Of a stretch of 64,000 bases of DNA, positions 2,815-58,969 are shown in pieces (the first letter of the stretch is position 1; each line of letters starts with the position of its first letter). Made by a program: the position numbers and the translations under genes. The stretch is from Parcubacteria group bacterium (GTDB taxonomy: Bacteria > Patescibacteriota > Minisyncoccia > Phycocordibacterales > UBA2135). The notes beneath the pieces are model-generated. The model searched no databases and was not told the DNA's origin. It saw only the letters and a program-made list of their open reading frames with translations. Location: the NCBI GenBank assembly GCA_016180525.1, contig JACPBB010000001.1:251840-315839 (forward strand), read 5' to 3'.

Positions 2815-2916
2815 ATTAATTAAATGAAAAATATAAAATGAAAAGCGAAAAATAAATCAAAACTACTTTTAATTTTGCATCGTTATTTTGCGTTTTGCGC
2901 TGTAAGTTTTGCGTTC
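2815..2916 (-). promoter_or_regulatory. conserved upstream element (AAAATGAAAAGCGAAAA ... TTTTGCGTTTTGC), copy upstream of the GT2 gene
   Basis: About 80 nt highly similar to 20243-20330. In gene orientation: GCAAAACGCAAAA...TTTTCGCTTTTCATTTTATATTTTTC then ATG. Confidence 0.6.
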
Positions 2917-4698
2917 CTATTGCCTAATATTATACATCTTGAAGAAGTAGGAGTCTTTCTTTTGGAGAAGATCGCCCGGCTTCCCAATTTCGGTTATTTT
3001 TCCATTATCTAAAACGAGAAGTGTGTCGCAATTCATAACAGTCCCCAAGCGGTGCGCAATGGCCAAAACCGTTATCTTTCCTTTTAAATTTTCTATGACT
3101 TCCTGCACCCGTTTTTCAGATTCGTTATCCAGTGCACTCGTCGCTTCGTCAAGAATGAGTAGTTGTGGATTTCGTGCCAACACTCTGGCAATAACGATTC
3201 TTTGCCGTTGTCCTGCCGACAAGCGGATGCCGCGCTCTCCTATTACCGAATCCCATTTTTTGGGTAATACTTCTATCGTCTCATAAATATTCGCCTGTTT
3301 CGCGGCGTATCTAATTTGTTCATCAGTGATGGTATCGTCAAAAAAACGAATGTTATTTGCTACTGTATCATTTATTAAATGAATATCTTGAGAAACATAC
3401 CCCACATTTCTACGAAATTCATGCAGATCAATTTCTGAGATTAAGGCTCTGTCTAAGAGAATGTCTCCTTTAGTCGGTTTAAATAAACGAAGCACGAGGT
3501 CAACAATCGTTGTTTTCCCCGCGCCAGAGGGGCCGATAAGCCCCACGAGTGACCCTTTGGGAACAGAAAAGGAAACTCCCGAGAGTATTTTTTTGTCTTC
3601 AGTATATCCAAATGACACATTGATAAATGAGAACTTTTCTTTAAACACAAACGCCTGCCCTCCCCTGTCTTCCTCTTCGTTTTTAAGCGCCCTTTTTTGA
3701 TATGAAAGCACGTGCTCAAGATATGGAATCATTCTAAATATGGTTTGAAGATGGGTCTGGAAACTTTGCACTTGAGAAAAAATTCTTTGAATCAAGTATA
3801 CAATGGCTATAAACGCGGGAAGATTAAAGTCTCCCGTTTTATAAGAAAAGGAAAAAAGCAGAAGAATAAAGATGACCCCGAACGGCTGAAAAAAGGAACC
3901 GAATACAGTGCTGATGAGCGCCCTCTTTATTTGAAGTTTCCGCAACGTTTCAAAATATTTTTCACCGACCTCTTCCACCGAATCGGTAACAGACATTGCT
4001 TTTACCGTTTTCATTCCAAGAACGTTTTCATTAACGAAGTGGGCGACACTTCGTGTTTTTTCGGCAACCTCTTGGCTTATCCTGCGCATTGTATTCACAA
4101 TCGGCTGAAATCCGATCGTAATAATAACACCCACACCCATAGTCAAAAGAGTTATGAAGAAAGAGATATTAACCGCGACAATAATATATACCAAAAGGCT
4201 CGTAAGAATGAGAATAAAAGAACTTAATGTCTCCAGAAGCTTTCTCACGTACGCAATTTCAACCGAAAGAACTTTTTCCAAGTGTCCTATTTTTTGATCC
4301 AGAAGGTGCCCCCATTTGGAACGCAGAGATTTTACAAAAAGCTCATCACGAATATTTTTTTCATAGCCATATGCTATTTTGAATTGAACGTATGACCCGA
4401 TAAACAGGACAGCGGCCTTTATGATAAAGAGAACCGCAATAAAAATAAGAAGATAATGTAAAGTAAAATCGGCTCCCAAAAACCCAAATAAACGTTCAAT
4501 AGCTTGTGAAATAAAATCATCTGCCGGACCAGCGTCTGTAATAAAAGAAAAAAGAGGAATCAGGGCATTAGCGCCCACACCCTCAAGAAGGCCGCTTAAA
4601 AAACCGATGCCGGTTAACGCCAGGATTTGTAATTTATAATCGCCAAACGCATCTTTCAACAAAGATAGGCCGCGAATGATTTTTTTAATAATATTCAT
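2917..4698 (-). CDS. ABC transporter, fused permease/ATP-binding protein (MsbA-like exporter)
   Basis: Six N-terminal TM helices. Walker A GPSGAGKTT, ABC signature LSAGQRQR, Walker B ILDEATSALD. Confidence 0.9.
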   Translation of the reverse strand: MNIIKKIIRGLSLLKDAFGDYKLQILALTGIGFLSGLLEGVGANALIPLFSFITDAGPADDFISQAIERLFGFLGADFTLHYLLIFIAVLFIIKAAVLFIGSYVQFKIAYGYEKNIRDELFVKSLRSKWGHLLDQKIGHLEKVLSVEIAYVRKLLETLSSFILILTSLLVYIIVAVNISFFITLLTMGVGVIITIGFQPIVNTMRRISQEVAEKTRSVAHFVNENVLGMKTVKAMSVTDSVEEVGEKYFETLRKLQIKRALISTVFGSFFQPFGVIFILLLFSFSYKTGDFNLPAFIAIVYLIQRIFSQVQSFQTHLQTIFRMIPYLEHVLSYQKRALKNEEEDRGGQAFVFKEKFSFINVSFGYTEDKKILSGVSFSVPKGSLVGLIGPSGAGKTTIVDLVLRLFKPTKGDILLDRALISEIDLHEFRRNVGYVSQDIHLINDTVANNIRFFDDTITDEQIRYAAKQANIYETIEVLPKKWDSVIGERGIRLSAGQRQRIVIARVLARNPQLLILDEATSALDNESEKRVQEVIENLKGKITVLAIAHRLGTVMNCDTLLVLDNGKITEIGKPGDLLQKKDSYFFKMYNIRQ

Positions 4699-4809
4699 AA
4701 TAATCCAGATAACCCAAATTATTTATCCGAATAACCCGGATATAATACTAGATATAATAATTTTGACATATAATTATCTGGGTTATTCGGATACATTTAT
4801 ATATTCGGA
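4699..4809. repeat. intergenic palindromic element, family 'AATAATCC / CCGAATAACCC', copy 1
   Basis: CCGAATAACCCGGATATAAT (about 4727-4746) versus the reverse complement of ATTATCTGGGTTATTCGG (about 4773-4790). Shares ACCCAAATTATTTATCCGAATAACCCGGATATAAT core with 9283-9417. Fills the whole gap upstream of the ABC transporter gene. Confidence 0.75.
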
Positions 4810-6222
4810 TTATGATGACATTTCTCCATTGGCGGTTTGTATCAGAATTTTCGCGATTCGCTCTGACGATTTTCCGTCAACTTTATAACACAGTTTTTGA
4901 AGTAATTGCTTTCGCTCCTCTCGCTTGTAACTTGGGTCAAGAAGGTAGGTATTAATACTTGCCTTAAGTTCATCTTCCGAGCGAGCCAAGTCAACAGCCC
5001 CTGTTTCAAGCACCCACTCCATATGGTCCTGCGTATAGAGCAAGGAAGAGACATCTTTTTTTGTGTGCGGGTGATGGAGAACGTTAAACGCAACATTTAT
5101 AAGCGGCTTGTCAAAGCACACACAATCAAGATTGAGCGTTGAAGCAACAGCAACCAATACGTCACAGTGATATATAAGGTTTGTAAATTTCTTTATCTCA
5201 TCCACGCCCGGGTCCCAATTATCTCCAAAAAAGTCTGAGAGAGTAAAATTTTTATCAACAACTACGTTAGACTCTCCTTCAAAGGCGGTAAGTCGCTTTG
5301 TTCTTGCGTCAGTATAATGCGGACGTATAAAAAGCTGAGCTGGAAGAGATAAAGCTCCTGGGGTGTTTACTAAGCGGACGAAGAACGAGACGACGCGCGC
5401 ATCGTCGGGTGCCCACGCTCCTTCAGAGCCATAAAAAATAATTTTTTTCTTCGGATCAAGCCCTACGGAGCGGCAATACTCCTCTCTGCTTACTAAAATC
5501 TCCGGCCTTCTGTACCAGTCAAATTGCGGAAAGCCTGTAACCACAATCTGCTCGAGCGGCATGGCCTGCACTCGAACAGCTTCTTTCTTCATGCGTTCGG
5601 CTTGCACAATAAGAACATCAGGAATGACGCGATATAACAATTGAGTTATGTTATCCCACCCCTTCGGCATTGCCACCGTTTTAACGCCACGCTTCTCTGC
5701 CTCTTTCATCATGTCTATGTCAAGATGGGCCTGTATTGAAGTAGAAAAAACAAGTGACGGTTTATATTTTTCAAAATATGAAGCATACGTATTGTGACTA
5801 AACACGCGTTTTTCTATAAAACGCGCGAATTTTTTGAGAAGAGGAATTTTGCTTGCGATTGAAAAAAGAATTAAATCTACATATTTCCAAAAAAATGCGC
5901 GCTCCCTCTTTTTGTCTGGCATGAATTGACTGTACATCCACCGAGACTTACTTGAAATAAGGAGTGGCGTTAACTTCGCAAATCGCGAATGTCCCCGTAA
6001 ATGTATACTCGGTGCGACTTCAAGAACGACCTGCTCGTCTTCAAGTTCTTTTTTTAAATATTCCGGAATTGATAGTAAACGATGGGTATCAAAAAAAATC
6101 ACAACGCGGAAACCAGCGTCTTTAAGATGCTTGAGAGTCCCGCTTCGCAGAATATTTCTTACGATAAAACCGCGGGTAATTATAATAAAAATTGTTTTTA
6201 GTTTTGCATTATTATTTTGCAT
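4810..6222 (-). CDS. GT-B fold, TagF-like (CDP-alcohol glycerophosphotransferase-like) surface glycopolymer protein, paralog A
   Basis: TIFIIITRGFIVRN N-terminus, IRPHY and HCDVLVAVASTLNLD...KPLINV C-terminal motifs resembling the TagF kpHP / ...DYSSV...KPiif motifs. Clear paralog of 20288-21661. The annotated ATG sits inside a conserved upstream promoter-like motif, so the true start is uncertain. Confidence 0.4.
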   Translation of the reverse strand: MQNNNAKLKTIFIIITRGFIVRNILRSGTLKHLKDAGFRVVIFFDTHRLLSIPEYLKKELEDEQVVLEVAPSIHLRGHSRFAKLTPLLISSKSRWMYSQFMPDKKRERAFFWKYVDLILFSIASKIPLLKKFARFIEKRVFSHNTYASYFEKYKPSLVFSTSIQAHLDIDMMKEAEKRGVKTVAMPKGWDNITQLLYRVIPDVLIVQAERMKKEAVRVQAMPLEQIVVTGFPQFDWYRRPEILVSREEYCRSVGLDPKKKIIFYGSEGAWAPDDARVVSFFVRLVNTPGALSLPAQLFIRPHYTDARTKRLTAFEGESNVVVDKNFTLSDFFGDNWDPGVDEIKKFTNLIYHCDVLVAVASTLNLDCVCFDKPLINVAFNVLHHPHTKKDVSSLLYTQDHMEWVLETGAVDLARSEDELKASINTYLLDPSYKREERKQLLQKLCYKVDGKSSERIAKILIQTANGEMSS

Positions 6223-6284
6223 TTTTCGTTTTAAGTTTTACGTTTATCTTACAACCTATAACCTAATACCTAGAACCTTGTTTT

Positions 6285-8481: not shown

Positions 8482-9282
8482 TTACATCCGCTCTTTCTCA
8501 ACCCTAAGAAAAGTAATGTACATTTTGATGAAATTTGAGACGAGAAATCCAAAATTATAGAGCAAAATAAGTAACAGGTACCCCGCAAGAAATTCCCATT
8601 TTCCAAAAAGAACAAAGATAGAAAACCACAAAATAAGACCCGGTTCTGAAAAAAAATTATCTTTAATAAGCACATGTCGATATAATTTTGCCATGTGAAA
8701 GAAAACGCTCATACTTCTGCCCGCCTCTTTCCTCACGAAAGAAGCCGTTTCCATATCATCTCCTCGGTGATGGCCCATTAAAAAATTAATTCTCTTTATG
8801 TTAATCGTTCTGTAGAGCAGAAAAAAAAGTGACGCGCTGATAGCTGCTATGAAAATAATTTCGGGAGATAGGGGCCCTACGGTGACTCCCTTTGAAAATA
8901 AAAGATAGCCGATTGATGAGGGTATAAATGTGTAGAAAAAATCGGCGCCCAACGCATCAAGCGCACCCCCGTACGTGGTTCTTCCGTGAACGCGCGCGAC
9001 ATCTCCGTCAGTTGAGTCAAGAACGCCAAAAATAAATATTCCAATAATTCCCGCGATGGCATATCCAAGTATAAATAAAATCGCGCTTGTTATAATTGCC
9101 ACTAAACTTAAAAAAGTTACAACATCCGCTGAAATGCCGAGATTTAAGAATATAAATGCAGAGTATGGGGAAAGCGCTTTTGTAATAATGTTTATTGGAA
9201 CAAACCGCTCCGCCAATCTCCGTGCTACAGGACGATTGGGATCGTAGCGAGTATCAAAAATTTGTTTTAGTGAGTATCTCAT
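8482..9282 (-). CDS. CDP-alcohol phosphatidyltransferase family membrane protein
   Basis: DSTDGDVARVHGRTTYGGALDALGAD matches the D-G-x2-A-R...G-x3-D-x3-D signature. Multiple TM helices. Confidence 0.75.
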   Translation of the reverse strand: MRYSLKQIFDTRYDPNRPVARRLAERFVPINIITKALSPYSAFIFLNLGISADVVTFLSLVAIITSAILFILGYAIAGIIGIFIFGVLDSTDGDVARVHGRTTYGGALDALGADFFYTFIPSSIGYLLFSKGVTVGPLSPEIIFIAAISASLFFLLYRTINIKRINFLMGHHRGDDMETASFVRKEAGRSMSVFFHMAKLYRHVLIKDNFFSEPGLILWFSIFVLFGKWEFLAGYLLLILLYNFGFLVSNFIKMYITFLRVEKERM

Positions 9283-9417
9283 AAATAAAATAATAACCCA
9301 AATAATCCGAATTATTTACTCGAAAATCCCGAATAAAATTGTGAATTAATAACTCTTTGGGGAATGTCATATAATACATTCGTGATTTTCGGGTATATTC
9401 GTAGATTCGGGTTATTG
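9283..9417. repeat. intergenic palindromic element, same family, copy 2
   Basis: AATAACCCAAATAATCCGAATTATTTACTCGAAAATCCCGAATAAAAT ... GATTTTCGGGTATATTCG ... ATTCGGGTTATTG. Fills the gap upstream of the CDP-alcohol phosphatidyltransferase gene. Confidence 0.75.
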
Positions 9418-10299
9418 CTAATAATGTTTAAACCAAACATCAAAAAGACTTGCTTCTTTAGGAAAATACGCCTTTTGTGCTTTTATGAGACGCTGATCCC
9501 CAAACATTGCCCCGAGGTCAAACAGCGCAAATAGATTATTTACCCATCGCGGGAGCTTAACCGTATTATACGGCCGATAATCAAAAAATTCCCCCATGCG
9601 ATGTTTTGTAATTTCCAGTGTCGGAAATTGATGAAATAGTTTTTGCACCTCCCGCTTTGTAAATATGGCCGTCTTTGGAGTCCCGCCATGGACTTCCGTC
9701 ACTTCATTATATACTTTCTGCCAATCAAGCCCATATCTAAACCACTTTCCCCGCAAAATACCATGAATGAAACATCGTTTTATGTAGTGCTTCCAGCCGC
9801 GCGCATAGACCGTTACAATCGCCTTTCCGTCTGGTTTTAAAACGCGAAACATTTCATTAACCGCTTTTTGGGTGTCTGGAGTATGGTGAATTACTCCAAG
9901 ACAAACAACAAGGTCAAATGTTCCGTCTTTAAATGGAAGCGCCTCTACGTTTGCTTCTCGAACTTCTTTATACGGCAAGTTTCTTAAATTAAAATTAAGT
10001 TTCGTAAGCATTACTTGGTCCGGCCCTAAATCAGTTGCGGTTACATTCGCGCCATACTTTGCATATTCAACCGAATCGGTCCCGATACCGCATCCTATTT
10101 CAAGTACATCCTCTCCCCGATGATATTCAAACTCCATCTCGTTTTTTATGTATTCGTAATATATTTTATATCGCTTATAGGCAAGTTCATTAAACCACGG
10201 GAGTGTAAACGGCGTTCTTTTTGAATACCACTGCTGGGGAATATTTTTCTTTCCCCAATATTGTTTTACTTCATCAATGGTTATTGCTTTCTTGTCCAT
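9418..10299 (-). CDS. class I SAM-dependent methyltransferase
   Basis: LEIGCGIGTD, ATDLGP, FDLVVCLGVIHHTPD, LKPDGKAIV motifs. Confidence 0.85.
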   Translation of the reverse strand: MDKKAITIDEVKQYWGKKNIPQQWYSKRTPFTLPWFNELAYKRYKIYYEYIKNEMEFEYHRGEDVLEIGCGIGTDSVEYAKYGANVTATDLGPDQVMLTKLNFNLRNLPYKEVREANVEALPFKDGTFDLVVCLGVIHHTPDTQKAVNEMFRVLKPDGKAIVTVYARGWKHYIKRCFIHGILRGKWFRYGLDWQKVYNEVTEVHGGTPKTAIFTKREVQKLFHQFPTLEITKHRMGEFFDYRPYNTVKLPRWVNNLFALFDLGAMFGDQRLIKAQKAYFPKEASLFDVWFKHY

Positions 10300-10347
10300 G
10301 AGTTTGATAGTAAATTAAAACAGGAATAAAGACAAGAATGTTGCCTA

Positions 10348-10381
10348 AAGAAAAAACGGGCATGCGCAATGCGCGTGCCCG
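10348..10381 (-). terminator. rho-independent terminator after gene 10391-10867
   Basis: 11-bp GC-rich stem CGGGCATGCGC/GCGCGTGCCCG (one G:U) with AAT loop at about 10357-10381. On the minus strand it is followed by a TTTTTTCTTT tract (plus-strand A-run about 10351-10356). Confidence 0.7.
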
Positions 10382-10390
10382 TAAAACGTT

Positions 10391-10867
10391 TTATGCGAGG
10401 AGCCGTCTGACTTCCTCACCAATATCTCTCGGTGCCTCTGATTCCGGAATAGGAACGGCATCTCCTTTAACCGACGGAAGCCGAAACGAAAACCATCTCG
10501 TCCCATCCTCAAGGGCAAGCCACGTGTGCCAAACTCCGGGTCCATAAAAAATAACATCCGATTGCCTATCCATGATAACCGTTTGCCTAGGAAGGAAGAC
10601 TGCCAAGCGACCGCTTACCAAAAACGAGAACGTGGAAACTGTTTTGTAATCAACCCATGAGGCATTCGGGTTGCCGTTACCCCATTTTGAAAATCCGCGA
10701 TTTGCTTCAGTATATGCAGTCTCAAAGTCAGTCCGATGTTGCAAGCTGCCATCGGGCATAAAATTGCCGATAAACCAGTTCGGGCCCTTTGCCTTATCCA
10801 TAATTTGTTTCGCGACAATTTCTGCCGCATTGCCGGTAAAGAAAGCAGGCTTCCCACAACAGGACAT
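10391..10867 (-). CDS. hypothetical protein (possible cupin-like fold)
   Basis: 158-aa ORF in a locally GC-richer block with its own terminator. Weak G...P.G..H cupin-like motif (VIFYGPGVWHTW). No confident family assignment. Confidence 0.4.
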   Translation of the reverse strand: MSCCGKPAFFTGNAAEIVAKQIMDKAKGPNWFIGNFMPDGSLQHRTDFETAYTEANRGFSKWGNGNPNASWVDYKTVSTFSFLVSGRLAVFLPRQTVIMDRQSDVIFYGPGVWHTWLALEDGTRWFSFRLPSVKGDAVPIPESEAPRDIGEEVRRLLA

Positions 10868-11396: not shown

Positions 11397-11400
11397 TATA

Positions 11401-11434
11401 AAACATCTCGTTTTTTAAAACGAGGTGTTTTTTC
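11401..11434. terminator. bidirectional rho-independent terminator between convergent genes
   Basis: CATCTCGTTTT TT AAAACGAGGTG hairpin flanked by an A-run upstream and TTTTTTC downstream. Lies between the stop of 10986-11396 (+) and the stop of 11444-13486 (-). Confidence 0.65.
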
Positions 11435-11443
11435 TTTCTAATA

Positions 11444-13486: not shown

Positions 13487-13530
13487 GTCGAATATATAAC
13501 CTATATTACATTACTTAGGTTAGTTTCATG

Positions 13531-13568
13531 TAAAGATAAAGGCTGTCCCAAGGACAGCCTTTGTGTTT
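13531..13568. terminator. rho-independent terminator downstream of the SDR gene (minus-strand operon end)
   Basis: Perfect hairpin GGCTGTCC-CAA-GGACAGCC at about 13541-13559 with T-rich runs on both sides (TTTATCTTTA on the minus side, TTTGTGTTT on the plus side). Confidence 0.7.
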
Positions 13569-13573
13569 AATTT

Positions 13574-18334: not shown

Positions 18335-20242
18335 TTAAAGAGAAATGTTGTATTCTCTCATCCACAACTCAAGGGTTGTGAGCATCCACACATTAAGCCC
18401 TTGTCGGCTATTCGGACCTTTGGGCACGCGCTCTAAAAATTGCGCAAGGTATTTTTCATTAAACAAGGACTTTGATTTTGAATTATTTCCGAGAAGGAGC
18501 TCTTTTGCCGAGGAATTAAACTCTCCGGCAAACCAATCGTTGAGGGGCGCTGGAGGACCGAGTTTCTTTCGATCAACAATTTCGCTAGGCAAATACTCGC
18601 GAGCTATCTCCTTTAGGAGATATTTAGAAATATCGTGTGTCTCGCTTATCTGGTCGCTATTTAAAATTTCTGCTTTCCTTTTGTCTTTTTCAGACTTCCA
18701 TCTCATTTTATACGAAAGCGGAAGTGAAGAAACATATTCAATTAAACGATGATCAACATACGGCTCACGCGCTTCCACAGAAAATGCCATTGAGTCCGTA
18801 TCGAGTCGGTGTAAAAGACCCAAAAGATGAGAGCGTTCAAAAACATGCATAATTTGTTCCTCATATGAAAGTCCTGACACTTCTTTAAACACTGCCTCAA
18901 AAAAAATTTTGTTAAGAAAATCACTACTATATTTTTCTACAACGCCCTGCTTAATAAGTTCTTTTTTTTCATTTTCTGGAAAATAAGAATAAAGCGATAG
19001 AAAATGGTCAACAATGGTTTTTTTATTCAAATCGCTATATTTCTTCAAGAGGTTTTTCTCAAGAGTTCCTGCCACCCCTTTGTGTATTCTTTCAAGATCA
19101 TATCCGCTTCTAAAAATTCTCCCATACCCGCCGAAAAGCTCATCGGCACCTTCTCCTGCAAGTACAACAGTAATGTGTTTTTTTAACTCTTTTGAGAGCA
19201 ACGTTCCAGAAACTTCAAATGGCACTGCGAGTGGAGCGTCTTTAAAGCGTATTGTCTCTCTCGCCGCATCAAGATATGTTTTGCCGTCAAGCAAAAGTTC
19301 ATGGTGTTCCGTATTAAAAAGTTTTGCCACCTTCCTGGCATATTTAAATTCATTAAAAGATTCTCCTTTAAAACCAACAGAAAATGTTTTAACTGGCTTT
19401 GGAGAAAGCAACGCCATGAGTACCGTTATTAAGCTTGAATCAAGACCCCCGCTTAAATAAGTACCAACGGGAACATCGCTTATCATTCTATATTTAATTG
19501 ACGAAAGAAGCAGTTCTTTTGTTTTTTCTTTTGCTTCTTTTTCTCCAGGATCTTTTTTATTGACAATCGCTGGCAATTTCCAGTAAGAAATCGGCTCGTT
19601 AACGGCTTTTGAAGTTACCGCAAGATAATGTCCCGGTAAAAGAGACAAAACCCCCTCAAACATTGTCTTTGCTCCTAATGGATACCGGTAGCTTAAAAAG
19701 TCCAAAAAACTCTCATAATTGAGTTTTTTTTGCAGGTCAGACATAGACAATATACCCTTTATCTCTGAAGAAAAATAAAATGTTCCTCTGTAAAAGGAGT
19801 AATAAAATGGTTTGACGCCCAATCGATCTCGGGCGCAAAAAAGTTCTTTTTTTTGTCTATCCCATATTGCGAAGGCAAACATACCGTTTAATTTTTGAAG
19901 AGACCGTGGCCCCCAGATTATGTAGGCGGCAAGGAGCACTTCAGTATCAGTTTGAGTTTTAAACGGGTATTTGTCCTTGAGCTCGCTTTTCAGTTCGCGA
20001 TAATTGTAAATTTCACCGTTGAAAACAATAGCGTATCTGCCGTCATGAGAGTAAAACGGTTGGCGGCCATCAGTAGAAAGATCAATAATTGAAAGTCTCC
20101 GATGTCCCAGCGCGATTCCCTCTTCCGGAGCATAGTAAATACCCGCATCGTCTGGCCCGCGATGAATCATCGTATCTCTCGCTTTTTTGAATTGTTCTTG
20201 GCTCGGCAAATGTTTGCCTAAAACGCCGATGATTGCGCACAT
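18335..20242 (-). CDS. asnB: asparagine synthase (glutamine-hydrolysing)
   Basis: N-terminal MCAIIG Ntn-glutaminase start, HRGPDD, and SGGLDSS PP-loop. 635 aa. Confidence 0.92.
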   Translation of the reverse strand: MCAIIGVLGKHLPSQEQFKKARDTMIHRGPDDAGIYYAPEEGIALGHRRLSIIDLSTDGRQPFYSHDGRYAIVFNGEIYNYRELKSELKDKYPFKTQTDTEVLLAAYIIWGPRSLQKLNGMFAFAIWDRQKKELFCARDRLGVKPFYYSFYRGTFYFSSEIKGILSMSDLQKKLNYESFLDFLSYRYPLGAKTMFEGVLSLLPGHYLAVTSKAVNEPISYWKLPAIVNKKDPGEKEAKEKTKELLLSSIKYRMISDVPVGTYLSGGLDSSLITVLMALLSPKPVKTFSVGFKGESFNEFKYARKVAKLFNTEHHELLLDGKTYLDAARETIRFKDAPLAVPFEVSGTLLSKELKKHITVVLAGEGADELFGGYGRIFRSGYDLERIHKGVAGTLEKNLLKKYSDLNKKTIVDHFLSLYSYFPENEKKELIKQGVVEKYSSDFLNKIFFEAVFKEVSGLSYEEQIMHVFERSHLLGLLHRLDTDSMAFSVEAREPYVDHRLIEYVSSLPLSYKMRWKSEKDKRKAEILNSDQISETHDISKYLLKEIAREYLPSEIVDRKKLGPPAPLNDWFAGEFNSSAKELLLGNNSKSKSLFNEKYLAQFLERVPKGPNSRQGLNVWMLTTLELWMREYNISL

Positions 20243-20330
20243 AAAAATTTAAAATGAAAAGCGAAAACGTAAAATAATTTTGAATTGTTATTTTAAGTTT
20301 TGCGTTTTGCTTTTTGCATTTAGAATTCCT
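20243..20330 (-). promoter_or_regulatory. conserved upstream element, copy upstream of asnB
   Basis: In gene orientation: GCAAAACGCAAAACTTAAAATAAC...TTTTCGCTTTTCATTTTAAATTTTT then ATG. A third, more divergent copy lies at about 6211-6260 upstream of (and overlapping the annotated start of) gene 4810-6222. Confidence 0.6.
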
Positions 20331-21661
20331 GTCAGGAATTCGTTGATTCTTTCGGCTGACTTCCCATCAAGTTTATATATAAATTGACTAATCATATTTT
20401 GCACATCCCTTTGTTGATTTTCTTCCAAAATATTCTTCAAAAATTTTAAAAATTCCTCCTCGCTTCTCGCAAGCCATGTTCCGCGAGATTCCATTAAATG
20501 CCTTACGTAATCGCTTATGAATAGTCGTTTTACCGACGCGCTCTCCGGAGTAGCAGTGACATCAAAGTTAAAGTTTACAACGGGAGTTCCGCACGCAATG
20601 GCGTCAAGCGAAAGCGTGGAGGCAACGTTCACGCACACATCCGCGTGATAGAGAGAGTTGAAAAGATTATACACGTGTTCTATTGAAGTATCATAATGAT
20701 CTCGAAGAGCGTGATTTTGTTTATCGCTCGTGTCAACAGCCATTCCTTTTTGCCCGCGTAAGGATAAAAACCGCTCCGCATCTCCCTTATAACCCAAGTG
20801 CGGGCGTATGAGTATGTTTGCCTCCGCAAGTTTTCCTTCATCCATAAATTTCCTGATTAAAAGAACGTGCTTTGATTCATCAAATAGTTTCGCCCCAGCT
20901 GAACCATAAAGAATTATTTTCTTTTTTGGATCAAAGTTGTGCTTTTTACAAAAATCTTCCCGTGAGAGTAATCCCTCTTTCCGCGCATAGAAATCAAACT
21001 GCGGAATGCCCGTAACGATGATTTCAGTATCAGAATATCCTTGGAGTGTAATCGCCTTCTCGCGCATAAAATTATTCCACACAATAAGAAAATCCGCCTT
21101 GGAGGAAAAAAGCGCCTGAGATACATTGTCCCATGTTTTGGGCATATCAACCGTTATTACACCAAAACGCCGTGCGCTTTCAATTACGCCACAATCACCG
21201 CCCGCTGCTGTATTAAAAACTAAATCAGGTTTATATTTTTCAAAAAGATAATCGTGGGCCAGAAGCGGATTTATAAATGAATGTACGGCGCGAATGATCC
21301 ATTTTGCGAAAGGCACATACCGCAGTGGCGCAAAAAAAATCATCCGAAGCGGAAAAAGAACGGTGCTCGGATTTTGTGGAGTTCCGATACTATACCGATA
21401 TCGGGCATATACACTACTGTTAAAAACAGCCCCCTTATAAAGCTCTTTAAAAAATCTTCTAAATTTTTCTTTTTGGTCCCAATGCAGGGGTTCTAATATT
21501 AAATTTTTATGAGCAAAACTGGAAAACAGTTCTGGCATTTTATAATATGGGGTCAAAACCACAACATGAAAACCGCTCTCAAGGAGACGGGAAACCACTC
21601 CAGTGTGAAACATATTGCGAATGATTCCTCCACGAGAAACAGTGATGAAAATTGTTTTCAT
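20288..21661 (-). CDS. GT-B fold, TagF-like surface glycopolymer protein, paralog B
   Basis: MKTIFITVSRGGIIRN, KYKPDLVF, IRPHL and HADVCVNVASTLSLDAIACGTPVVNF motifs. Paralog of 4810-6222. Confidence 0.4.
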   Translation of the reverse strand: MKTIFITVSRGGIIRNMFHTGVVSRLLESGFHVVVLTPYYKMPELFSSFAHKNLILEPLHWDQKEKFRRFFKELYKGAVFNSSVYARYRYSIGTPQNPSTVLFPLRMIFFAPLRYVPFAKWIIRAVHSFINPLLAHDYLFEKYKPDLVFNTAAGGDCGVIESARRFGVITVDMPKTWDNVSQALFSSKADFLIVWNNFMREKAITLQGYSDTEIIVTGIPQFDFYARKEGLLSREDFCKKHNFDPKKKIILYGSAGAKLFDESKHVLLIRKFMDEGKLAEANILIRPHLGYKGDAERFLSLRGQKGMAVDTSDKQNHALRDHYDTSIEHVYNLFNSLYHADVCVNVASTLSLDAIACGTPVVNFNFDVTATPESASVKRLFISDYVRHLMESRGTWLARSEEEFLKFLKNILEENQQRDVQNMISQFIYKLDGKSAERINEFLTGILNAKSKTQNLK

Positions 21662-21772
21662 AAGTAAGTAATAACCAGAATAATCCAGATTTTTTACCCT
21701 AATAACTAACTCAAACGTATGCTGTATCCGGCTTATTCGAGCAATCTATATGTCCGGATTATTATTATAACC
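21662..21772. repeat. intergenic palindromic element, same family, copy 3
   Basis: AATAACCAGAATAATCCAGAT (about 21670-21690) versus the reverse complement of GTCCGGATTATTATTATAACC (about 21752-21772); also CCGGCTTATTCGAG. Fills the gap upstream of gene 20288-21661. Confidence 0.7.
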
Positions 21773-22939
21773 TTATTGTTTTTCTTTAAGTTCTGACAGA
21801 GCAATCTTTAAAAACGAACCGGGACGCAAAAGTTCAAACGCTTCTCGAGCCATTTTTTGCCTCTCTTGGAATTCTTTATTATCTAAAGCATTATAAAAAT
21901 CAAGGATTGCCTGTTCAGTATCTTTAATACGAGTGTAGTCAACTGTAACGACAAATTTATCATAATCAATAAAATCTTTGAGTGGCAGTTCGCAATCCGT
22001 ATTAATGAGTACCGGAAATCTGCCGAGGGACAATGTTTCAAAAAAACGAACAGAGGCATTTCCGTTTCCTTTTGGGGCAAGCACAAAATCAGTGTGTAGT
22101 ATGCTTTCAACATATTCTTTTTCACCCTTTTCGTATCCAATTTGTTTTTTCCCATCAAACCCGCTTTGCGCGTTGAAAGACCTTCGTAATATAAAATTCG
22201 TATTTAAACGAGTTGACCCGCTAAGAACCTGTACGGCCTTTCTTCTAAAAAAAATGCCTCGCTTATGAAGTTCTGCATATTTGTCTTGAAAAACATATTT
22301 CTTTACATCAGAAAGCAGCGCTCTGCCCGCATATGTAATTCTTCGATAGAAACTCGGAAAGTTCGCCCATCCACAAAAACTGACTGTCGGTTTTTCATTT
22401 TTTTCACGCAAAAAAATGCTTTTCCATATTTTTTTTCTATATTCAGAAAGTTCCGGTGGCCTAAAGTGAAGCGGGTACGGCGGTGTTATTATTTCATTTT
22501 CTTTTTGTTTATATTTATATTGAGAATATCTGAAAATAATAGAATGCGGAATTGAAATATCTTCGTCGGAATCCGTCATCGAGAATACAAGTATCTTCTT
22601 TTTATATTTTTCAGCAAGTGAAATAAAATGCGCAAGAAGAGCCTCCGACTTTCGTAACGCACTCATTTTGTCTTCTTGGTTTTTTTTATTATATGGATAA
22701 CGCAATACCGCGTAGTTGTGTGGTAATAGTAAAAAATCGGCATCCTCTGGATTGCTAACAATTCGTAAAAAATCAAAAGACGCTTCACTGGAAGATCCTT
22801 GAAACATGTTCCACAAATTCGGCTCTATCTCTTTGTTTTTATGCAAAACTTTTTCAAGAAAAAAAACGAGTGGAGCATTTTTAAGAGGTGCCCCTATATA
22901 TACAGATATAACATTATTATTCATATTGTTTTTTAACAA
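21773..22939 (-). CDS. GT47 (exostosin-like) family glycosyltransferase, paralog 1
   Basis: C-terminal FVLAPKGNGNASVRFFETLSLGRFPVLINTDCELP...DYDKFVV matches the exostosin/GT47 motif F.L.PRG.G..S.R..EA...GCIPV.ISD...P....I.W..F.V. Confidence 0.55.
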   Translation of the reverse strand: MLKNNMNNNVISVYIGAPLKNAPLVFFLEKVLHKNKEIEPNLWNMFQGSSSEASFDFLRIVSNPEDADFLLLPHNYAVLRYPYNKKNQEDKMSALRKSEALLAHFISLAEKYKKKILVFSMTDSDEDISIPHSIIFRYSQYKYKQKENEIITPPYPLHFRPPELSEYRKKIWKSIFLREKNEKPTVSFCGWANFPSFYRRITYAGRALLSDVKKYVFQDKYAELHKRGIFFRRKAVQVLSGSTRLNTNFILRRSFNAQSGFDGKKQIGYEKGEKEYVESILHTDFVLAPKGNGNASVRFFETLSLGRFPVLINTDCELPLKDFIDYDKFVVTVDYTRIKDTEQAILDFYNALDNKEFQERQKMAREAFELLRPGSFLKIALSELKEKQ

Positions 22940-29828: not shown

Positions 29829-29838
29829 AAATATATAT

Positions 29839-29926
29839 GATGCGAAAATAGCGAAATCTATGCGAAATGTGCGAAATTATGAATTTTCTTTTCGTGGCTT
29901 TCGCATACTTTTTGTGGATTTCGTAT
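29839..29926. repeat. about 90-bp repeat element, copy A (GCGAAAT x4 followed by inverted TTTCG(C/T) x3)
   Basis: GATGCGAAAATAGCGAAATCTATGCGAAATGTGCGAAATTATGAATTTTCTTTTCGTGGCTTTCGCATACTTTTTGTGGATTTCGTATC. Copy B at 31625-31713 differs at about 5 positions. It lies immediately upstream of the methyltransferase ATG (29828) and overlaps the last ~17 codons of the aminotransferase ORF. Confidence 0.85.
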
Positions 29927-31040: not shown

Positions 31041-31227
31041 TTTTAAAATTTCTAATTAATCTAATTACTCTAATTATTCTAATCAAATCCCAATTAATTA
31101 AATCCTAAATTAGAAATCCTAAATCCTAAACAAATACAAAATTCAAATGAAAAAATTATTAAGTGTTTTTATTTTTTGAATTTTTGATTTCGATATTGTT
31201 TAGAGTTTAGATATTAGGATTTAGAAT
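31041..31227. repeat. structured 187-bp intercistronic spacer: degenerate about 9-bp tandem repeat (TCTAATTAN x4) plus long imperfect inverted repeat
   Basis: TCTAATTAATCTAATTACTCTAATTATTCTAATCAAA..., AAATCCTAAATTAGAAATCCTAAATCCTAAAC versus the reverse complement of GTTTAGAGTTTAGATATTAGGATTTAGAATTT, and a nested inverted repeat CAAAATTCAAA / TTTGAATTTTG. Confidence 0.6.
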
Positions 31228-31611: not shown

Positions 31612-31624
31612 AAAATAAATACAC

Positions 31625-31713
31625 GATGCGAAAACAGCGAAATCTATGCGAAATGTGCGAAATTATGAATTTTCTTTTCGCGGTTTTCGCATGCTTTTTG
31701 TGGATTTCGCATC
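31625..31713. repeat. about 90-bp repeat element, copy B
   Basis: GATGCGAAAACAGCGAAATCTATGCGAAATGTGCGAAATTATGAATTTTCTTTTCGCGGTTTTCGCATGCTTTTTGTGGATTTCGCATC. Immediately upstream of the ATG of the cupin gene (31611) and just past the stop of the C-methyltransferase gene. Confidence 0.85.
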
Positions 31714-33084: not shown

Positions 33085-33465
33085 ATGGAGGCTGTTTTGA
33101 AGGCTCTTTGGCACATTGCTTTGATTTCATTTAGGCCCGATGCGCCTGAGGAGATTCGTAAAGAAATTTTTGATCAATATCAGACCCTGGCAGAAGATTG
33201 CGGGGGCAGAGATACCGGTATTCTTTTTTGGAAAGTAGCCCACAATTTAGATCTACGAAAAAACGTGCATTTGGTGGAAATTGCCGTATTTAAAGACGAT
33301 GCCGCTCTGCAGGCGTTCAGAGGACACCCCAAACACAAAGAATTGACTGATGTGCTTTCAAAAGTTGCCGACTGGTGGGTCGGCGATGTATACCAGACTC
33401 TTCCTAATGATTTAATTACCGAAACCCCTTCGCATGAGGCGGCACTTTTAGATGGAGTTGATTAA
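33085..33465 (+). CDS. Dabb-type (stress-responsive dimeric alpha+beta barrel) domain protein
   Basis: 126 aa. VHLVEIAVFKDDAALQAFRGHPKH is typical of Dabb/EthD-like proteins. Confidence 0.45.
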   Translation: MEAVLKALWHIALISFRPDAPEEIRKEIFDQYQTLAEDCGGRDTGILFWKVAHNLDLRKNVHLVEIAVFKDDAALQAFRGHPKHKELTDVLSKVADWWVGDVYQTLPNDLITETPSHEAALLDGVD

Positions 33466-34190
33466 TGAAAAAACTAGAAATGAGAATTTGGGAGCGATTT
33501 CCAGAGCTCGTTCAGGCAGTAAAACTTGACCACGACAAAGCAGATCTCTTTCGAGTACACGACATTTTCCACGCACTACGCGTTGGAGAATGGGCATACA
33601 GAATTGCATATTCTGAATGGGGAGATGTGCGACTTGCAGAGCTCGCTGGAATAGCGGGAATCTGCCACAATGCTGACCACATGCTCTTTAAAAAAGACGG
33701 ACCGGATGAGCGTAGTGTAAAACACGATCGCATACGAACAGTGATTAAAAGGTGGCTTATATACACTGACACAAAATCAAACGAGCAAGAGTTAATTATA
33801 CAGGCAGTTATAAACCATACGAACAAAAACAGCGATTTTGATCCGAAGATACTGATAGCGCTTATGGACGCAGATCGTGTTGTAAATGCTGAAGCTGACG
33901 TCATTATGAGATCAGCACAATTTCGCAATTTGCCACCAATTGATTACAAACACTTCTTGAAAGATCCTAGTGCGACATACTGGAATCCAAAGACTGTAAT
34001 CTATGACCTGTCTGGGTGCCTTGACTGGTTTGAGGAAGGATGTCCGGTTTGTGTAAGAACACAGCTGGCAAAGCAAGAAGGAGGGTTTCTTGCGGCATAT
34101 CTTAAAAGATACCTAGATACAGTAGAACAACAGCTTAAAGATATAGGGCTTCTACCATGTCCGTTTGATGAAACATGGAAGGTGTCATAA
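33465..34190 (+). CDS. HD-domain-like phosphohydrolase (putative)
   Basis: RVHDIFHALRV (H...HD) then CHNADH and KHD motifs. Start overlaps the upstream stop (TAATG). Confidence 0.4.
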   Translation: MKKLEMRIWERFPELVQAVKLDHDKADLFRVHDIFHALRVGEWAYRIAYSEWGDVRLAELAGIAGICHNADHMLFKKDGPDERSVKHDRIRTVIKRWLIYTDTKSNEQELIIQAVINHTNKNSDFDPKILIALMDADRVVNAEADVIMRSAQFRNLPPIDYKHFLKDPSATYWNPKTVIYDLSGCLDWFEEGCPVCVRTQLAKQEGGFLAAYLKRYLDTVEQQLKDIGLLPCPFDETWKVS

Positions 34191-36366: not shown

Positions 36367-36479
36367 AATAAAAAATTAAAGCTTAAAACAAAAAGTGCAA
36401 AATAGCAATGTAATAAAGCAGAATATTTTGAACTTTGAGTTGTTATTTTAACTTCTGTGTTTTTACATTTTAATTTTAT

Positions 36480-55757: not shown

Positions 55758-57170
55758 TTATTCCTTTTCTTCAAGAATTGTAAAGTCCTCTGCCGTAACA
55801 GTCTCGCCTGACTCTTCTAGCAAAGGAGCGCGAAAAACGAAAAAGAAGCCGAGAAACCCCATAAGCATGAGCCCCGCGAATCCGAAAAGCCATTTCATTA
55901 TGGAATTGTTTTGGCTATGTGCTCCTACGGCTGCCGCAACTTGTGTCTTTTCCGAAGCTGATTCTTCATTATTTAAAACAGGCTTTTCTTTTAATGCTTT
56001 GGTATCTGCATCTTTAGAGACGGTTACAACTATTGGAAGTGGAGATGCAATTGGGGGCACAGGAATATAAGCAGAAGCAATGTTTCCATTTGGATAAAGA
56101 AGGGCAACATCGCCACTAAAAGCAAGTCCGGTTACTTGCGGAGCAAATCGCAATGTTTTTCCTGAAGCGATAAGCGTATTTGCTGGAACCATAAAATGCC
56201 CACCTTCCGAGCGCAATACCCACCCTTCAAGATTGACTTCGTATTTTGTGTTGTTTGTAACTGCTATAAAAAAATCCTGAGGTGTGCCGATACCACTTAC
56301 CGCAATGTCAGAGGGAACAGTCATCACATTTATTTTTGCTGACGCGGCGTATCCGCCGGAACTCCCCTCAAGAACAACTATATATTCCCCGGGATAGCGA
56401 TATGTGTGAGAAACTGCCGAGCCCTCTCCCCTTTCACCGTCTCCGAAACTCCACAGAAAGCGGACGTTCTCTATGGGCTCACTCTTAAGGCCAAGAGCAG
56501 AGCCGCGAAAGGCAATTGGAGCGCCCACAAGCGCGACACGCCTTACCTGCCCCGCGCTCACAGTAATTGTTTGCTTTGGTTCTGGCGCATAAATACTTTC
56601 CGAGTTTCCTACAACTGGCCCTTCAAGTGTCTCACCCGCTGTCTCTTGGTTATTTCCTCCACCTTCATCATTTGTCACCCCAGGAGTTGGTAGTGCGGCA
56701 ATCCATTGTCCCTGTATTAATTGAATTGATAAGCCGTTTTTTTGTGCGCCAGCATTTTCCCCATATGAAACTGAGCCAACGGTCACACCACTTTCATTAG
56801 CCAGAGATAAAATATCGCCAATATCAGTGAGAGAAAAAGAGCCGTCAATCACAGTGCCAGAAAATCCTTGGTGCGTATTTAAAAATGTATCGGCCTCTTT
56901 GGCGATAATAGCATATGCGTTGGGAGACACGGTAAGAGTTCCTTGTCCCCCGTTCTTAGGCGGCTTTTCAAAAACGTGATTTGTTCCATCATTAAATCGC
57001 CATTCTGTGAGATCAACTGATTCACTTCCCTCATTTAAAATCTCAAACCATTCGTAGGCAACACCCTCTTCCGGAGCATACATTATTTCGGTAATTACTA
57101 CTTGCGCATGCGAAAAGACCGGAAAAAGAAAGAGAAATAAAGCTAATAATAAAGCAGCATGTCGTTTCAT
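55758..57170 (-). CDS. secreted/membrane-anchored surface protein with lamin-tail domains (LTD)
   Basis: Signal peptide MKRHAALLLALFLFLFPVFSHA. VVITEIMYAPEEGVAYEWFEILNEGSESVDLTEWRF is a classic LTD. A second LTD-like segment follows, then a C-terminal TM anchor. The track start is a TTG. Confidence 0.7.
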   Translation of the reverse strand: MKRHAALLLALFLFLFPVFSHAQVVITEIMYAPEEGVAYEWFEILNEGSESVDLTEWRFNDGTNHVFEKPPKNGGQGTLTVSPNAYAIIAKEADTFLNTHQGFSGTVIDGSFSLTDIGDILSLANESGVTVGSVSYGENAGAQKNGLSIQLIQGQWIAALPTPGVTNDEGGGNNQETAGETLEGPVVGNSESIYAPEPKQTITVSAGQVRRVALVGAPIAFRGSALGLKSEPIENVRFLWSFGDGERGEGSAVSHTYRYPGEYIVVLEGSSGGYAASAKINVMTVPSDIAVSGIGTPQDFFIAVTNNTKYEVNLEGWVLRSEGGHFMVPANTLIASGKTLRFAPQVTGLAFSGDVALLYPNGNIASAYIPVPPIASPLPIVVTVSKDADTKALKEKPVLNNEESASEKTQVAAAVGAHSQNNSIMKWLFGFAGLMLMGFLGFFFVFRAPLLEESGETVTAEDFTILEEKE

Positions 57171-57204
57171 TGAACTAGATTCTAGCAAACTATGTATTAT
57201 TTTC

Positions 57205-57238
57205 AAGAAAAAACGTCTGAAGAAATTACTTCAGACGT
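57205..57238 (-). terminator. rho-independent terminator after the NYN-domain gene
   Basis: ACGTCTGAAG-AAATTA-CTTCAGACGT 10-bp stem. On the minus strand it is followed by TTTTTTCTTG. Confidence 0.7.
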
Positions 57239-57255
57239 TTATGAAAAACTTTAAA

Positions 57256-58833: not shown

Positions 58834-58887
58834 GTTTCAACCGCTCCTTCCGTGGTTGCATTCCGGTGGAAATACTACCATATTTCA

Positions 58888-58913
58888 ATAAAAAAGCAAG
58901 TTTTAAAACTTGC
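58888..58913 (-). terminator. rho-independent terminator after gene 58970-60169 (perfect palindrome GCAAGTTTTAAAACTTGC + T-tract)
   Basis: 18-bp perfect palindrome at about 58896-58913, followed on the minus strand by TTTTTTAT. Confidence 0.6.
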
Positions 58914-58930
58914 ACATGTTTTTAGTGTAG

Positions 58931-58956
58931 AACTATTCCAGTATACTGGAATAGTT
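58931..58956. promoter_or_regulatory. perfect 26-bp palindrome AACTATTCCAGTA|TACTGGAATAGTT (candidate operator)
   Basis: Seen directly. Lies between the stop of 58970-60169 and the terminator, about 100 bp upstream of the NYN gene start. Confidence 0.5.
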
Positions 58957-58969
58957 TATGTTGGATTTT

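What the first reader, a model, noticed from the sequence alone, without database searches (positions are those of the whole stretch)
4699..4809. Family of about 110-135-bp palindromic intergenic elements filling three operon-internal gaps (4699-4809, 9283-9417, 21662-21772)
The three intergenic spacers share sequence modules (AATAATCC(A/G)GA, CCGAATAACCC / GGGTTATTCGG, and the ACCCAAATTATTTA(T/C)(C/T)CGAA core). Each forms a long imperfect inverted repeat. All three sit between co-directional minus-strand genes, immediately upstream of the ABC exporter, the CDP-alcohol phosphatidyltransferase and a TagF-like paralog respectively. They could be shared regulatory hairpins (terminator/antiterminator or operator), RNA-processing sites within polycistronic transcripts, or REP/MITE-like repeats.
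Basis: seen in the sequence. Interest (0 to 1): 0.55.

Follow-up and report, generated by a model that had tools for sequence, protein, structure and literature searches.

The report
Palindromic intergenic repeat family, Parcubacteria
Three gene-to-gene gaps in a sugar-polymer gene cluster of an uncultivated Parcubacteria bacterium hold related copies of a 110-135-base foldback repeat that was inserted into junctions which are tight in related genomes, so it is most likely a small selfish mobile-type repeat (MITE-like), not a dedicated regulatory switch.

Summary
Gaps 4699-4809, 9283-9417 and 21662-21772 are homologous over their full length, in one orientation only (local-alignment z 10.6, 5.8, 6.7 against shuffles). 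Each is built from a ~12-nt unit, AATAAYCCRRAT. On the mRNA strand there are 3-4 units, a 20-45-nt non-palindromic core, then 4 reversed units.

The copies share a 38-pair consensus hairpin with 7 compensatory pairs. IG3 is degraded. No further copy was found in the window, in 426 kb of Patescibacteria loci, or in public scans.

In related Parcubacteria the same gene junctions are tight (-8 to +11 nt), or hold an unrelated palindrome. The copies are therefore lineage-specific insertions.

At least four other gaps of the window have the same architecture with different units. Some of those families recur in other Parcubacteria genomes at other junctions and in either orientation. Assemblies break at them.

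Tests were negative for promoter or terminator signal, Rfam families, attC cores, TIGR boxes, REP heads, a nearby regulator or transposase, and folding bias towards the mRNA strand.

Best reading (about 0.55): a new family of MITE/foldback-like palindromic repeats, tolerated at operon junctions and co-transcribed as hairpins. The mobility mechanism is unknown and no target duplication was found.

The parts
4699..4809 (-). F1 copy IG1 (111 nt) between the TagF-like gene 4810-6222 and the ABC exporter 2917-4698. The palindrome extends over the stop codon (4810-4812) and the start codon (4696-4698).
   Evidence: CM 121 bits
9283..9417 (-). F1 copy IG2 (135 nt) between methyltransferase 9418-10299 and CDP-alcohol phosphatidyltransferase 8482-9282. 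It is the best-preserved 4+4 unit hairpin.
   Evidence: CM 138 bits
21662..21772 (-). F1 copy IG3 (111 nt) between GT47 exostosin-like 21773-22939 and TagF-like paralog 20288-21661. It is a degraded copy: ~30 nt of the centre are missing and only the outer helix is intact.
   Evidence: z -1.4; CM 101 bits
4699..4742 (+). IG1 arm proximal to the start codon. It has four units read on the + strand (4699, 4708, 4721, 4730), in two tandem pairs with 9-nt offset.
   Evidence: PWM hits 13.5-20.0 bits
4775..4814 (-). IG1 arm proximal to the stop codon. It has three units read on the - strand (4775, 4784, 4802).
4743..4774 (-). IG1 non-palindromic centre. It carries ATTATATGTCA...ATTATTA, shared with IG2.
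   Evidence: alignment
9292..9335 (+). IG2 start-proximal arm. Units at 9292, 9301 and 9323, plus a degenerate unit at ~9314.
9378..9416 (-). IG2 stop-proximal arm. Units at 9386 and 9404, plus degenerate units at ~9378 and 9395.
21670..21704 (+). IG3 start-proximal arm. Units at 21670, 21679 and 21692.
21725..21763 (-). IG3 stop-proximal arm. Units at 21725 and 21751.

Best explanation
IG1-IG3 are three diverged copies of one non-coding, AT-rich foldback repeat. It is a MITE-like or foldback-like dispersed palindromic element in the genome of an uncultivated Parcubacteria (CPR/Patescibacteria) bacterium.

Each arm is a short array of a ~12-nt sub-repeat (AATAAYCCRRAT), forward in one arm and reversed in the other, around a non-palindromic core.

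Shown: the copies were added to operon junctions that are tight in relatives. Inferred: in a gene-dense genome these junctions are almost the only places where an insertion survives, which is why each element runs from stop codon to start codon.

Inferred: the copies are co-transcribed with the glycan operon and fold into a long A-U-rich hairpin whose base holds the stop codon and lies 0-10 nt from the next start codon. This folding keeps the two codons close and probably lets translation of the downstream gene, which lacks a Shine-Dalgarno sequence, continue. That would explain why only foldback sequences are tolerated there. Side effects such as RNase III cleavage or altered mRNA stability are possible.

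Unknown: how the copies are made. No transposase and no target-site duplication were found.
For: Full-length, orientation-specific homology of the three copies, including the non-palindromic centre.

They share a 38-pair hairpin: 87.7% of cells paired, 7 compensatory pairs against 4.1+-1.5 in shuffles (31 of 500), and 0-1 in slid controls.

Insertion polymorphism. The TagF->ABC junction is +11 nt in L056 and a -8 nt overlap in L064, L065 and L066, against 111 nt here. The methyltransferase->CDP-OH junction is 1 nt in L056, although the protein ends are conserved (VWFKHY* / MKY(S/T)LKQI).

The same junction holds unrelated palindromes in L058 (126 nt) and L065 (93 nt).

Seven of 19 gaps >=60 nt in the window are multi-unit palindromes that run from A/C-rich to T/G-rich, against 1-2 of 49 in other CPR loci.

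Other families recur across genomes at non-orthologous junctions and in both orientations: 2815-2916 ~ L058:2670-2795 z 8.1; 36367-36479 ~ the same element reversed z 11.6; 31041-31227 ~ L065:20372-20435 z 9.3 and ~ L065:21393-21496 reversed z 8.8; 543-654 ~ L061 contig end z 14.2.

A solo-arm copy exists at 29829-29876.

The Logan contig begins and ends at such repeats.

There is no conserved ORF and no bias towards folding of the mRNA strand.

Reviews describe prokaryotic MITEs as AT-rich, intergenic and stem-loop-forming, with direct repeats that decay. One MITE (Chunjie) is known to have inserted into an operon without disrupting it (PMC10969869).
Against: Only three copies are known, all within 17 kb of one gene cluster and all in the same orientation. 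The rest of the genome could not be searched.

No target-site duplication is consistent across the copies.

No transposase or parent IS was seen (Pfam).

F1 itself was not found in any other genome.

The compensatory changes between arms and the position of the helix base at the stop and start codons are equally expected of a selected RNA hairpin.

Sub-repeated arms are not typical of described bacterial MITEs.
Confidence: 0.55

Rival explanations
1. Selected cis-acting RNA hairpins within the polycistronic mRNA. The helix would sequester the region just upstream of the start codon until a ribosome terminating on the stop codon at the helix base opens it (translational coupling by unmasking, or termination-reinitiation across the hairpin). 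Alternatively it would be an RNase III or stability determinant that sets relative expression of the ABC exporter, the CDP-OH transferase and TagF.
For: The first paired base is -9 to +2 nt from the stop codon and the last paired base is -4 to +10 nt from the start codon in all three copies.

There are 7 compensatory pairs.

Fold z is -3.5 for IG1 and -4.2 for IG2.

The downstream genes lack a Shine-Dalgarno sequence.

Unrelated hairpins occupy the same methyltransferase->CDP-OH junction in three lineages.
Against: The closest relative has no spacer at all at both junctions, so the hairpin is dispensable.

The antisense strand folds better than the mRNA strand in IG1 and IG2, and in 8 of 10 elements of this class.

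IG3 folds no better than shuffles.

Contact of the helix base with the stop and start codons follows trivially from insertion into a tight junction.

Other families occur in both orientations and as half-copies.
Confidence: 0.22
2. Arrays of operator sites for a DNA-binding protein (a regulator, a nucleoid protein or an iteron-binding protein) that recognises the 12-nt unit. This would create regulated internal promoters or roadblocks in front of three functionally linked genes of a teichoic-acid-like pathway.
For: There are seven to eight copies of a short unit per element, in tandem pairs offset by 9 nt and in both orientations.

The three downstream genes (exporter, CDP-alcohol transferase, TagF-like polymerase) could belong to one pathway.
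Against: Homology extends through the non-unit centre and the flanks.

Promoter-like sites are no more frequent than in shuffles and are not conserved among the copies.

No DNA-binding protein is encoded in the window.

The sites are absent from orthologous junctions.

At least four other unit types with the same architecture would each need their own protein.
Confidence: 0.08
3. Locally generated palindromes with no mobility. Slippage would create short tandem units, and intrastrand template switching (quasi-palindrome correction) would copy them into the opposite arm. The similarity of the three copies would come from gene conversion between spacers of one cluster.
For: The arms are made of tandem sub-repeats.

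The arms co-vary between copies.

All known copies lie within 17 kb.

Simple tandem 7-nt units are present at 6223-6284.
Against: The flanking genes are not paralogous, so there is no substrate for conversion.

Sister families are shared between different genomes at unrelated junctions.

Half-copies and assembly breaks suggest dispersed copies.
Confidence: 0.1

Closest known systems
Prokaryotic MITEs, e.g. Correia repeat-enclosed elements of Neisseria and the Chunjie MITE of Geobacter (PMC2649163, PMC10969869, PMC2229807)
   Same: They are 100-250 bp, non-coding, AT-rich and intergenic, with terminal inverted repeats. They are co-transcribed as stem-loops and show presence/absence between relatives. 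They can sit inside operons without breaking them.
   Different: No TA or other target duplication was found here, and no parent IS is known. The arms are arrays of 9-13-nt sub-repeats instead of a single 20-30-bp TIR. The copies run exactly from stop codon to start codon. There is no sequence similarity to any known element.
REP/BIME and ERIC (IRU) elements of enterobacteria (PMC3733652, PMC3184786; ERIC from my own knowledge)
   Same: Both are imperfect palindromes in transcribed intergenic regions of operons. BIMEs are mosaics of short units in both orientations. ERIC is ~127 bp.
   Different: REP units are themselves GC-rich 20-40-bp palindromes with GTAG/CGTC heads. The units here are 12 nt, AT-rich and not palindromic, and those heads are absent. 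No similarity to any E. coli genome was found.
Eukaryotic Foldback (FB) transposons (from my own knowledge)
   Same: They have long inverted arms composed of short tandem sub-repeats around a non-repetitive middle.
   Different: They are eukaryotic and kilobase-sized, with a different and partly known transposition machinery. The resemblance is architectural only.
Integron attC sites
   Same: They are 57-141-nt imperfect palindromes between co-directional genes. Their sequences vary while the architecture is constant.
   Different: The R''/R' core sites RYYYAAC / GTTRRRY are absent on both strands. No integrase is present. The flanking genes form a conserved syntenic pathway and are not cassettes.
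Stem-loop TIGR arrays of TIGR-Tas systems, common in CPR (PMC12045711; bioRxiv 10.64898/2026.09.09.750476)
   Same: They are variable palindromic stems around a ~36-nt interior. They are found in Patescibacteria, and their sequences are not conserved between units.
   Different: No Nop-domain Tas protein is encoded in the 64 kb. The box C (CCA) / box D (UG) pattern flanking two 8-12-nt spacers is absent on both strands. The elements are not in tandem arrays.

Membership tests
MITE (prokaryotic) | Small, non-coding, AT-rich | tested here: met
   111-135 nt; GC 0.26-0.32; no ORF shared by the copies
MITE (prokaryotic) | Terminal inverted repeats | tested here: met
   Outer helix AATAAYCCGRA / TYYGGRTTATT in all three copies; 38-pair consensus
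MITE (prokaryotic) | Several dispersed, related copies in one genome | tested here: inconclusive
   There are 3 copies at unrelated junctions within 17 kb. Only ~71 kb of the genome was available, so the genome-wide copy number is unknown.
MITE (prokaryotic) | Target-site duplication flanking the element | tested here: inconclusive
   No direct repeat is consistent across the copies. An 8-nt repeat flanks IG3, but an equally long chance repeat lies in the conserved coding flanks of IG2.
MITE (prokaryotic) | Empty orthologous sites in relatives | tested here: met
   TagF->ABC is +11 nt or a -8 nt overlap in L056, L064, L065 and L066. Methyltransferase->CDP-OH is 1 nt in L056.
MITE (prokaryotic) | Parent IS or transposase with the same ends | not testable with these tools
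   No transposase is encoded in the window. The rest of the MAG could not be fetched.
REP/BIME | GC-rich 20-40-bp palindromic unit with a GTAG or CGTC head | tested here: not met
   The units are AT-rich 12-mers and are not palindromic. GTAG occurs once, in IG2 only, and CGTC never.
ERIC/IRU | Sequence similarity to the enterobacterial element | tested here: not met
   blastn of IG2 against 5,426 E. coli genomes found no match.
Integron attC | R'' RYYYAAC and R' GTTRRRY core sites at the two ends; integrase nearby | tested here: not met
   Neither core occurs on either strand of any copy. No integrase is found among the window proteins (Pfam).
TIGR stem-loop array | Adjacent Tas (Nop-domain) gene; box C/D motifs flanking two 8-12-nt spacers; tandem units | tested here: not met
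   There is no Nop hit in any window protein. The pattern CCA-N8-12-TG...CCA-N8-12-TG is absent. The elements are single, not arrayed.
Intrinsic terminator | G+C-rich stem followed by a T run | tested here: not met
   No terminator-like site lies in any of the three gaps. Canonical terminators exist elsewhere in the window.
Any Rfam cis-regulatory RNA | Covariance-model match | tested here: not met
   No hit at gathering score in the whole window. No hit with E<=5 over 1-37000 apart from an unrelated weak L20-leader match.

The most novel reading that the evidence does not exclude
Parcubacteria carry a previously undescribed class of foldback elements with sub-repeated arms, in several sequence families that share one architecture. 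These elements colonise stop-start junctions of operons. They persist because their hairpin brings the stop codon and the next start codon together, so ribosomes reinitiate across 110-135 nt without a Shine-Dalgarno sequence. This would be a bacterial analogue of ribosome shunting.
Probability: 0.1. Interest if true: 0.7.

Novelty: new member of a known kind. Interest (0 to 1): 0.38.

Why it matters
Small palindromic repeats have hardly been catalogued in CPR/Patescibacteria. A 2024 MITE review (PMC10969869) mentions neither the phylum nor the candidate phyla radiation.

If the class is as common in this lineage as the window suggests (7 of 19 longer gaps), three consequences follow:
- It fragments metagenome assemblies.
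- It marks recent rearrangement and insertion in surface-glycan clusters that differ between related episymbionts.
- It offers natural test cases for how a 110-135-nt insertion between formerly overlapping genes is tolerated.

For annotation, these spacers should not be read as promoters, riboswitches or TIGR/CRISPR-like arrays.

Tried and rejected
(1) Public scans with the 27-mer AATAAYCMRRATAAYCCRRATTWTTTA. There were 0 hits in 185,579 species genomes. There were 4 metagenome loci. Three of these are one phage-like contig (ThyX, DnaB-like helicase) carrying 7 tandem 9-mers ATTCGGATT. One is a 2-unit tandem repeat. None is homologous to the window, so all were rejected as low-complexity look-alikes.

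(2) A 21-mer scan of viral contigs gave >=120 single matches. No match showed the two-orientation cluster, so they are chance hits.

(3) Sigma-70 promoter and intrinsic terminator scans were at shuffle level. A perfect TATAAT on the antisense strand of IG1 and IG2 is not conserved in IG3.

(4) Bacteroidota-type promoter motifs were considered while the taxon was unknown. They were dropped once the identical protein proved to be annotated as Parcubacteria and the relatives proved to be Patescibacteria.

(5) TIGR-Tas stem-loop guide or target, integron attC and REP heads all tested negative.

(6) Relay uORF through the element. L058:2670-2795 has a 38-codon ORF that starts right after the stop codon. 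IG3 has no ATG, and the ORFs of IG1 and IG2 differ. Rejected as a general feature.

(7) Target-site duplications were not consistent.

(8) Strand-specific RNA selection via G-U pairs. The antisense strand is more stable in 8 of 10 elements.

(9) Fetching the rest of the MAG. Look-ups returned only Logan contigs, which add about 6.6 kb on one side and about 0.4 kb on the other.

Full report
**1. What is there**

The window is a 64-kb, almost entirely minus-strand cluster of glycan and teichoic-acid-like biosynthesis genes: glycosyltransferases, methyltransferases, sugar-nucleotide enzymes, two TagF-like Glyphos_transf proteins, a CDP-alcohol phosphatidyltransferase and an ABC exporter (Pfam). 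It has no tRNA genes and no Rfam hit.

The ABC exporter is identical to an NCBI protein annotated 'MAG: Parcubacteria group bacterium'. The nearest genomes holding relatives are all Patescibacteria/CPR. The same DNA occurs in three Logan assemblies, so it is not an assembly artefact.

The three gaps named in the finding lie exactly between the stop codon of one minus-strand gene and the start codon of the next.

**2. Check of the observation**

All three gaps are made of one ~12-nt unit, AATAAYCCRRAT.
- At <=1 mismatch it occurs 18 times in the window, against 5.95+-2.0 in shuffles. 13 of the 18 lie in the three gaps.
- A PWM built from the units finds no other cluster in 64 kb.

Read on the mRNA (minus) strand, every copy has the same layout:
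- stop codon;
- 3-4 units;
- a 20-45-nt non-palindromic centre, with ATTATATGWCA and GTTATTA shared between copies;
- 4 reversed units in two tandem pairs offset by 9 nt;
- 0-9 nt;
- ATG.

The copies are similar far beyond composition. Local-alignment z is 10.6, 5.8 and 6.7 against dinucleotide shuffles. This holds only in the same orientation, and none of them resembles ten other gaps of the window.

IG1 and IG2 fold into long hairpins (z -3.5 and -4.2). IG3 does not clearly do so (z -1.4) and lacks ~30 nt of the centre.

An RNAalifold consensus has 38 pairs. 87.7% of cells are paired, and 7 pairs show changes on both sides, against 4.1+-1.5 in shuffles (31 of 500) and 0-1 when the partner is slid. 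With three sequences this is suggestive only.

**3. Is it conserved elsewhere?**

- A 27-nt degenerate pattern that matches all three copies has no hit in one genome for each of 185,579 species.
- It has four hits in JGI metagenomes, and these are unrelated tandem 9-mers, three of them on a phage-like contig.
- No unit cluster exists in ~2 Mb of fetched loci.
- A covariance model of the family (R1) finds only the three copies in 426 kb that include 20 other Patescibacteria loci.
- There is no BLAST similarity in E. coli genomes or plasmids.

**4. Orthologous junctions**

The closest relatives of the exporter are 67-69% identical and sit in syntenic clusters.

TagF-like gene -> exporter junction:
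- separated by 11 nt in L056;
- overlapping by 8 nt in L064, L065 and L066;
- separated by 111 nt in the window.

Methyltransferase -> CDP-alcohol transferase junction. The protein ends are conserved (…VWFKHY* and MKY(S/T)LKQI…), but the spacer differs:
- 1 nt in L056;
- 126 nt in L058;
- 93 nt in L065 and L064;
- 135 nt in the window.

The three long spacers are all long imperfect hairpins with no sequence similarity to one another. IG1 and IG2 are therefore lineage-specific additions to junctions that can be tight, and they are dispensable for the operon.

**5. The three copies are part of something wider**

Other gaps of the window have the same architecture with other units:
- 2815-2916 (CGCAAAAC / GTTTTGCG-type units);
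- 31612-31711 (TGCGAAAAYC x3, then ATTTCGCA x4);
- 31041-31227 (CTAAATCC / TTAGGATTT, AATTAGA);
- 36367-36479;
- 543-654.

There are also half-copies: 29829-29876 is nearly identical to the start-proximal arm of 31612-31711, and 20243-20287 matches part of 2815-2916.

All of these read A/C-rich then T/G-rich on either strand. Seven of 19 gaps >=60 nt in the window have this signature (dAC >= 0.21), against one or two of 49 gaps in 15 other CPR loci.

Several families recur in other Parcubacteria genomes at non-orthologous junctions and in either orientation:
- 2815-2916 ~ L058:2670-2795, z 8.1;
- 36367-36479 ~ the same L058 element reversed, z 11.6;
- 31041-31227 ~ L065:20372-20435, z 9.3;
- 31041-31227 ~ L065:21393-21496 reversed, z 8.8;
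- 543-654 ~ the end of Logan contig SRR12113430_1416, z 14.2.

That contig starts at window ~29879, next to the half-copy, and ends inside a repeat. This is the usual sign of dispersed repeats.

**6. What it is not**

- Promoter or terminator. Consensus promoter-like and terminator-like sites are at shuffle level and are not shared by the copies. Canonical G+C-rich terminators with T runs do occur in other gaps (10300-10390, 11397-11443, 13487-13573, 57207-57255, 58834-58969).
- Protein partner. No regulator, transposase, integrase or Nop-domain (Tas) protein is encoded in the window.
- Known element classes. attC core sites, the TIGR box C/D pattern and REP GTAG/CGTC heads are absent.
- Coding. 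No ORF is shared by the copies.
- Target duplication. No target-site duplication is consistent.
- Selected mRNA fold. If the mRNA hairpin were the selected object, imperfections should favour G-U pairs on the mRNA strand. Instead the antisense strand would fold more stably in IG1, in IG2, and in 8 of 10 elements of the class.

**7. Most likely explanation**

Shown:
- a three-member sequence family with terminal inverted repeats;
- insertion polymorphism against relatives;
- sister families dispersed among genomes in both orientations, with truncated copies.

Inferred: these are non-autonomous, MITE/foldback-like repeats. In a gene-dense CPR genome they survive essentially only at gene junctions, which explains why they run from stop to start.

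The helix base includes the stop codon (first paired base -9 to +2) and ends -4 to +10 nt from the start codon. This follows from insertion into a tight junction. It also means that the folded insertion keeps the stop and start codons close. I infer that this is why foldback sequences are tolerated in front of genes that lack a Shine-Dalgarno sequence.

Co-transcription and RNase III or stability effects, as documented for Correia elements (PMC2649163), are plausible but untested. The copying mechanism is unknown.

Confidence is about 0.55. The rivals are:
- a selected coupling or processing hairpin (0.22);
- locally generated palindromes homogenised by conversion (0.10);
- operator arrays (0.08).

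**8. Comparison and novelty**

The closest known kinds are bacterial MITEs (Correia, Chunjie), ERIC/BIME-type intergenic palindromes and, in architecture only, eukaryotic Foldback elements with sub-repeated arms.

The family is new in sequence, and I found no description of such repeats in Patescibacteria. The kind is known. The unusual points are:
- the sub-repeated arms;
- the coexistence of several families with one architecture;
- the exact stop-to-start placement.

I rate it a new member of a known kind, with moderate interest (0.38). There is a roughly 10% chance that the class has a real role in translation across operon junctions, which would be considerably more interesting.

Noticed in passing
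window 2815-2916, 31041-31227, 31612-31711, 36367-36479, 543-654; half-copies 29829-29876 and 20243-20287: Further palindromic spacers have the same design: short units forward, then reversed, running A/C-rich then T/G-rich. Their units differ (CGCAAAAC; CTAAATCC/AATTAGA; TGCGAAAAYC; ATAC-type). Several have relatives in other Parcubacteria loci (L058, L065, L008) at other junctions and in either orientation.
   Followed up: partly
L058:2670-2795 and L065:3149-3241 (also L064:2371-2463): The methyltransferase->CDP-alcohol transferase junction, which is 1 nt in L056, holds unrelated 126-nt and 93-nt hairpins in two other lineages. The L058 element starts with a duplicate of the gene's ATGAAA and carries a 38-codon ORF that ends 9 nt before the real start.
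   Followed up: partly
window 6223-6284: Four tandem 7-nt units (AGGTTCT AGGTATT AGGTTAT AGGTTGT) are followed by AAACGTAAAACTTAAAACGAAAA directly before the start codon. The second part is the reverse complement of the T-rich motif in 20243-20287.
   Followed up: no
window, upstream of most ORFs (e.g. 2917-4698, 8482-9282, 18335-20242): Most genes of the cluster have no Shine-Dalgarno-like sequence. A few do (10391-10867, 57256-58833, 33465-34190). Several genes have a TATA-like hexamer 4-11 nt before the ATG, which hints at leaderless or very short-leader mRNAs.
   Followed up: no
window 10300-10390, 11397-11443, 13487-13573, 57207-57255, 58834-58969: These gaps hold canonical intrinsic-terminator-like hairpins (G+C-rich stem plus T run). 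They divide the 64-kb co-directional cluster into several probable transcription units.
   Followed up: no
window 1-64000: A single glycan cluster of more than 64 kb would be several per cent of a typical ~1-Mb CPR genome. Its gene content between conserved anchors differs strongly among relatives (L056, L058, L064-L066). It includes GT47 exostosin-like proteins, carbamoyltransferase, CofD-like, GH57 and an LTD+PKD protein (55758-57206).
   Followed up: no
window 60175-62229 and 57256-58833: A TrwB/TraG-type coupling-protein homologue and a protein with a weak NYN-domain match lie at the upstream end of the cluster.
   Followed up: no
L004:4074-4140, L006:920-986, L007:3173-3245: Phage-like metagenome contigs (ThyX, DnaB-like helicase, DUF932) carry seven tandem 9-mers, ATTCGGATT, in a divergent intergenic region. 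The 9-mer is the same as the core of the F1 unit, but the contigs are otherwise unrelated to the window. It may be an iteron-type array.
   Followed up: partly
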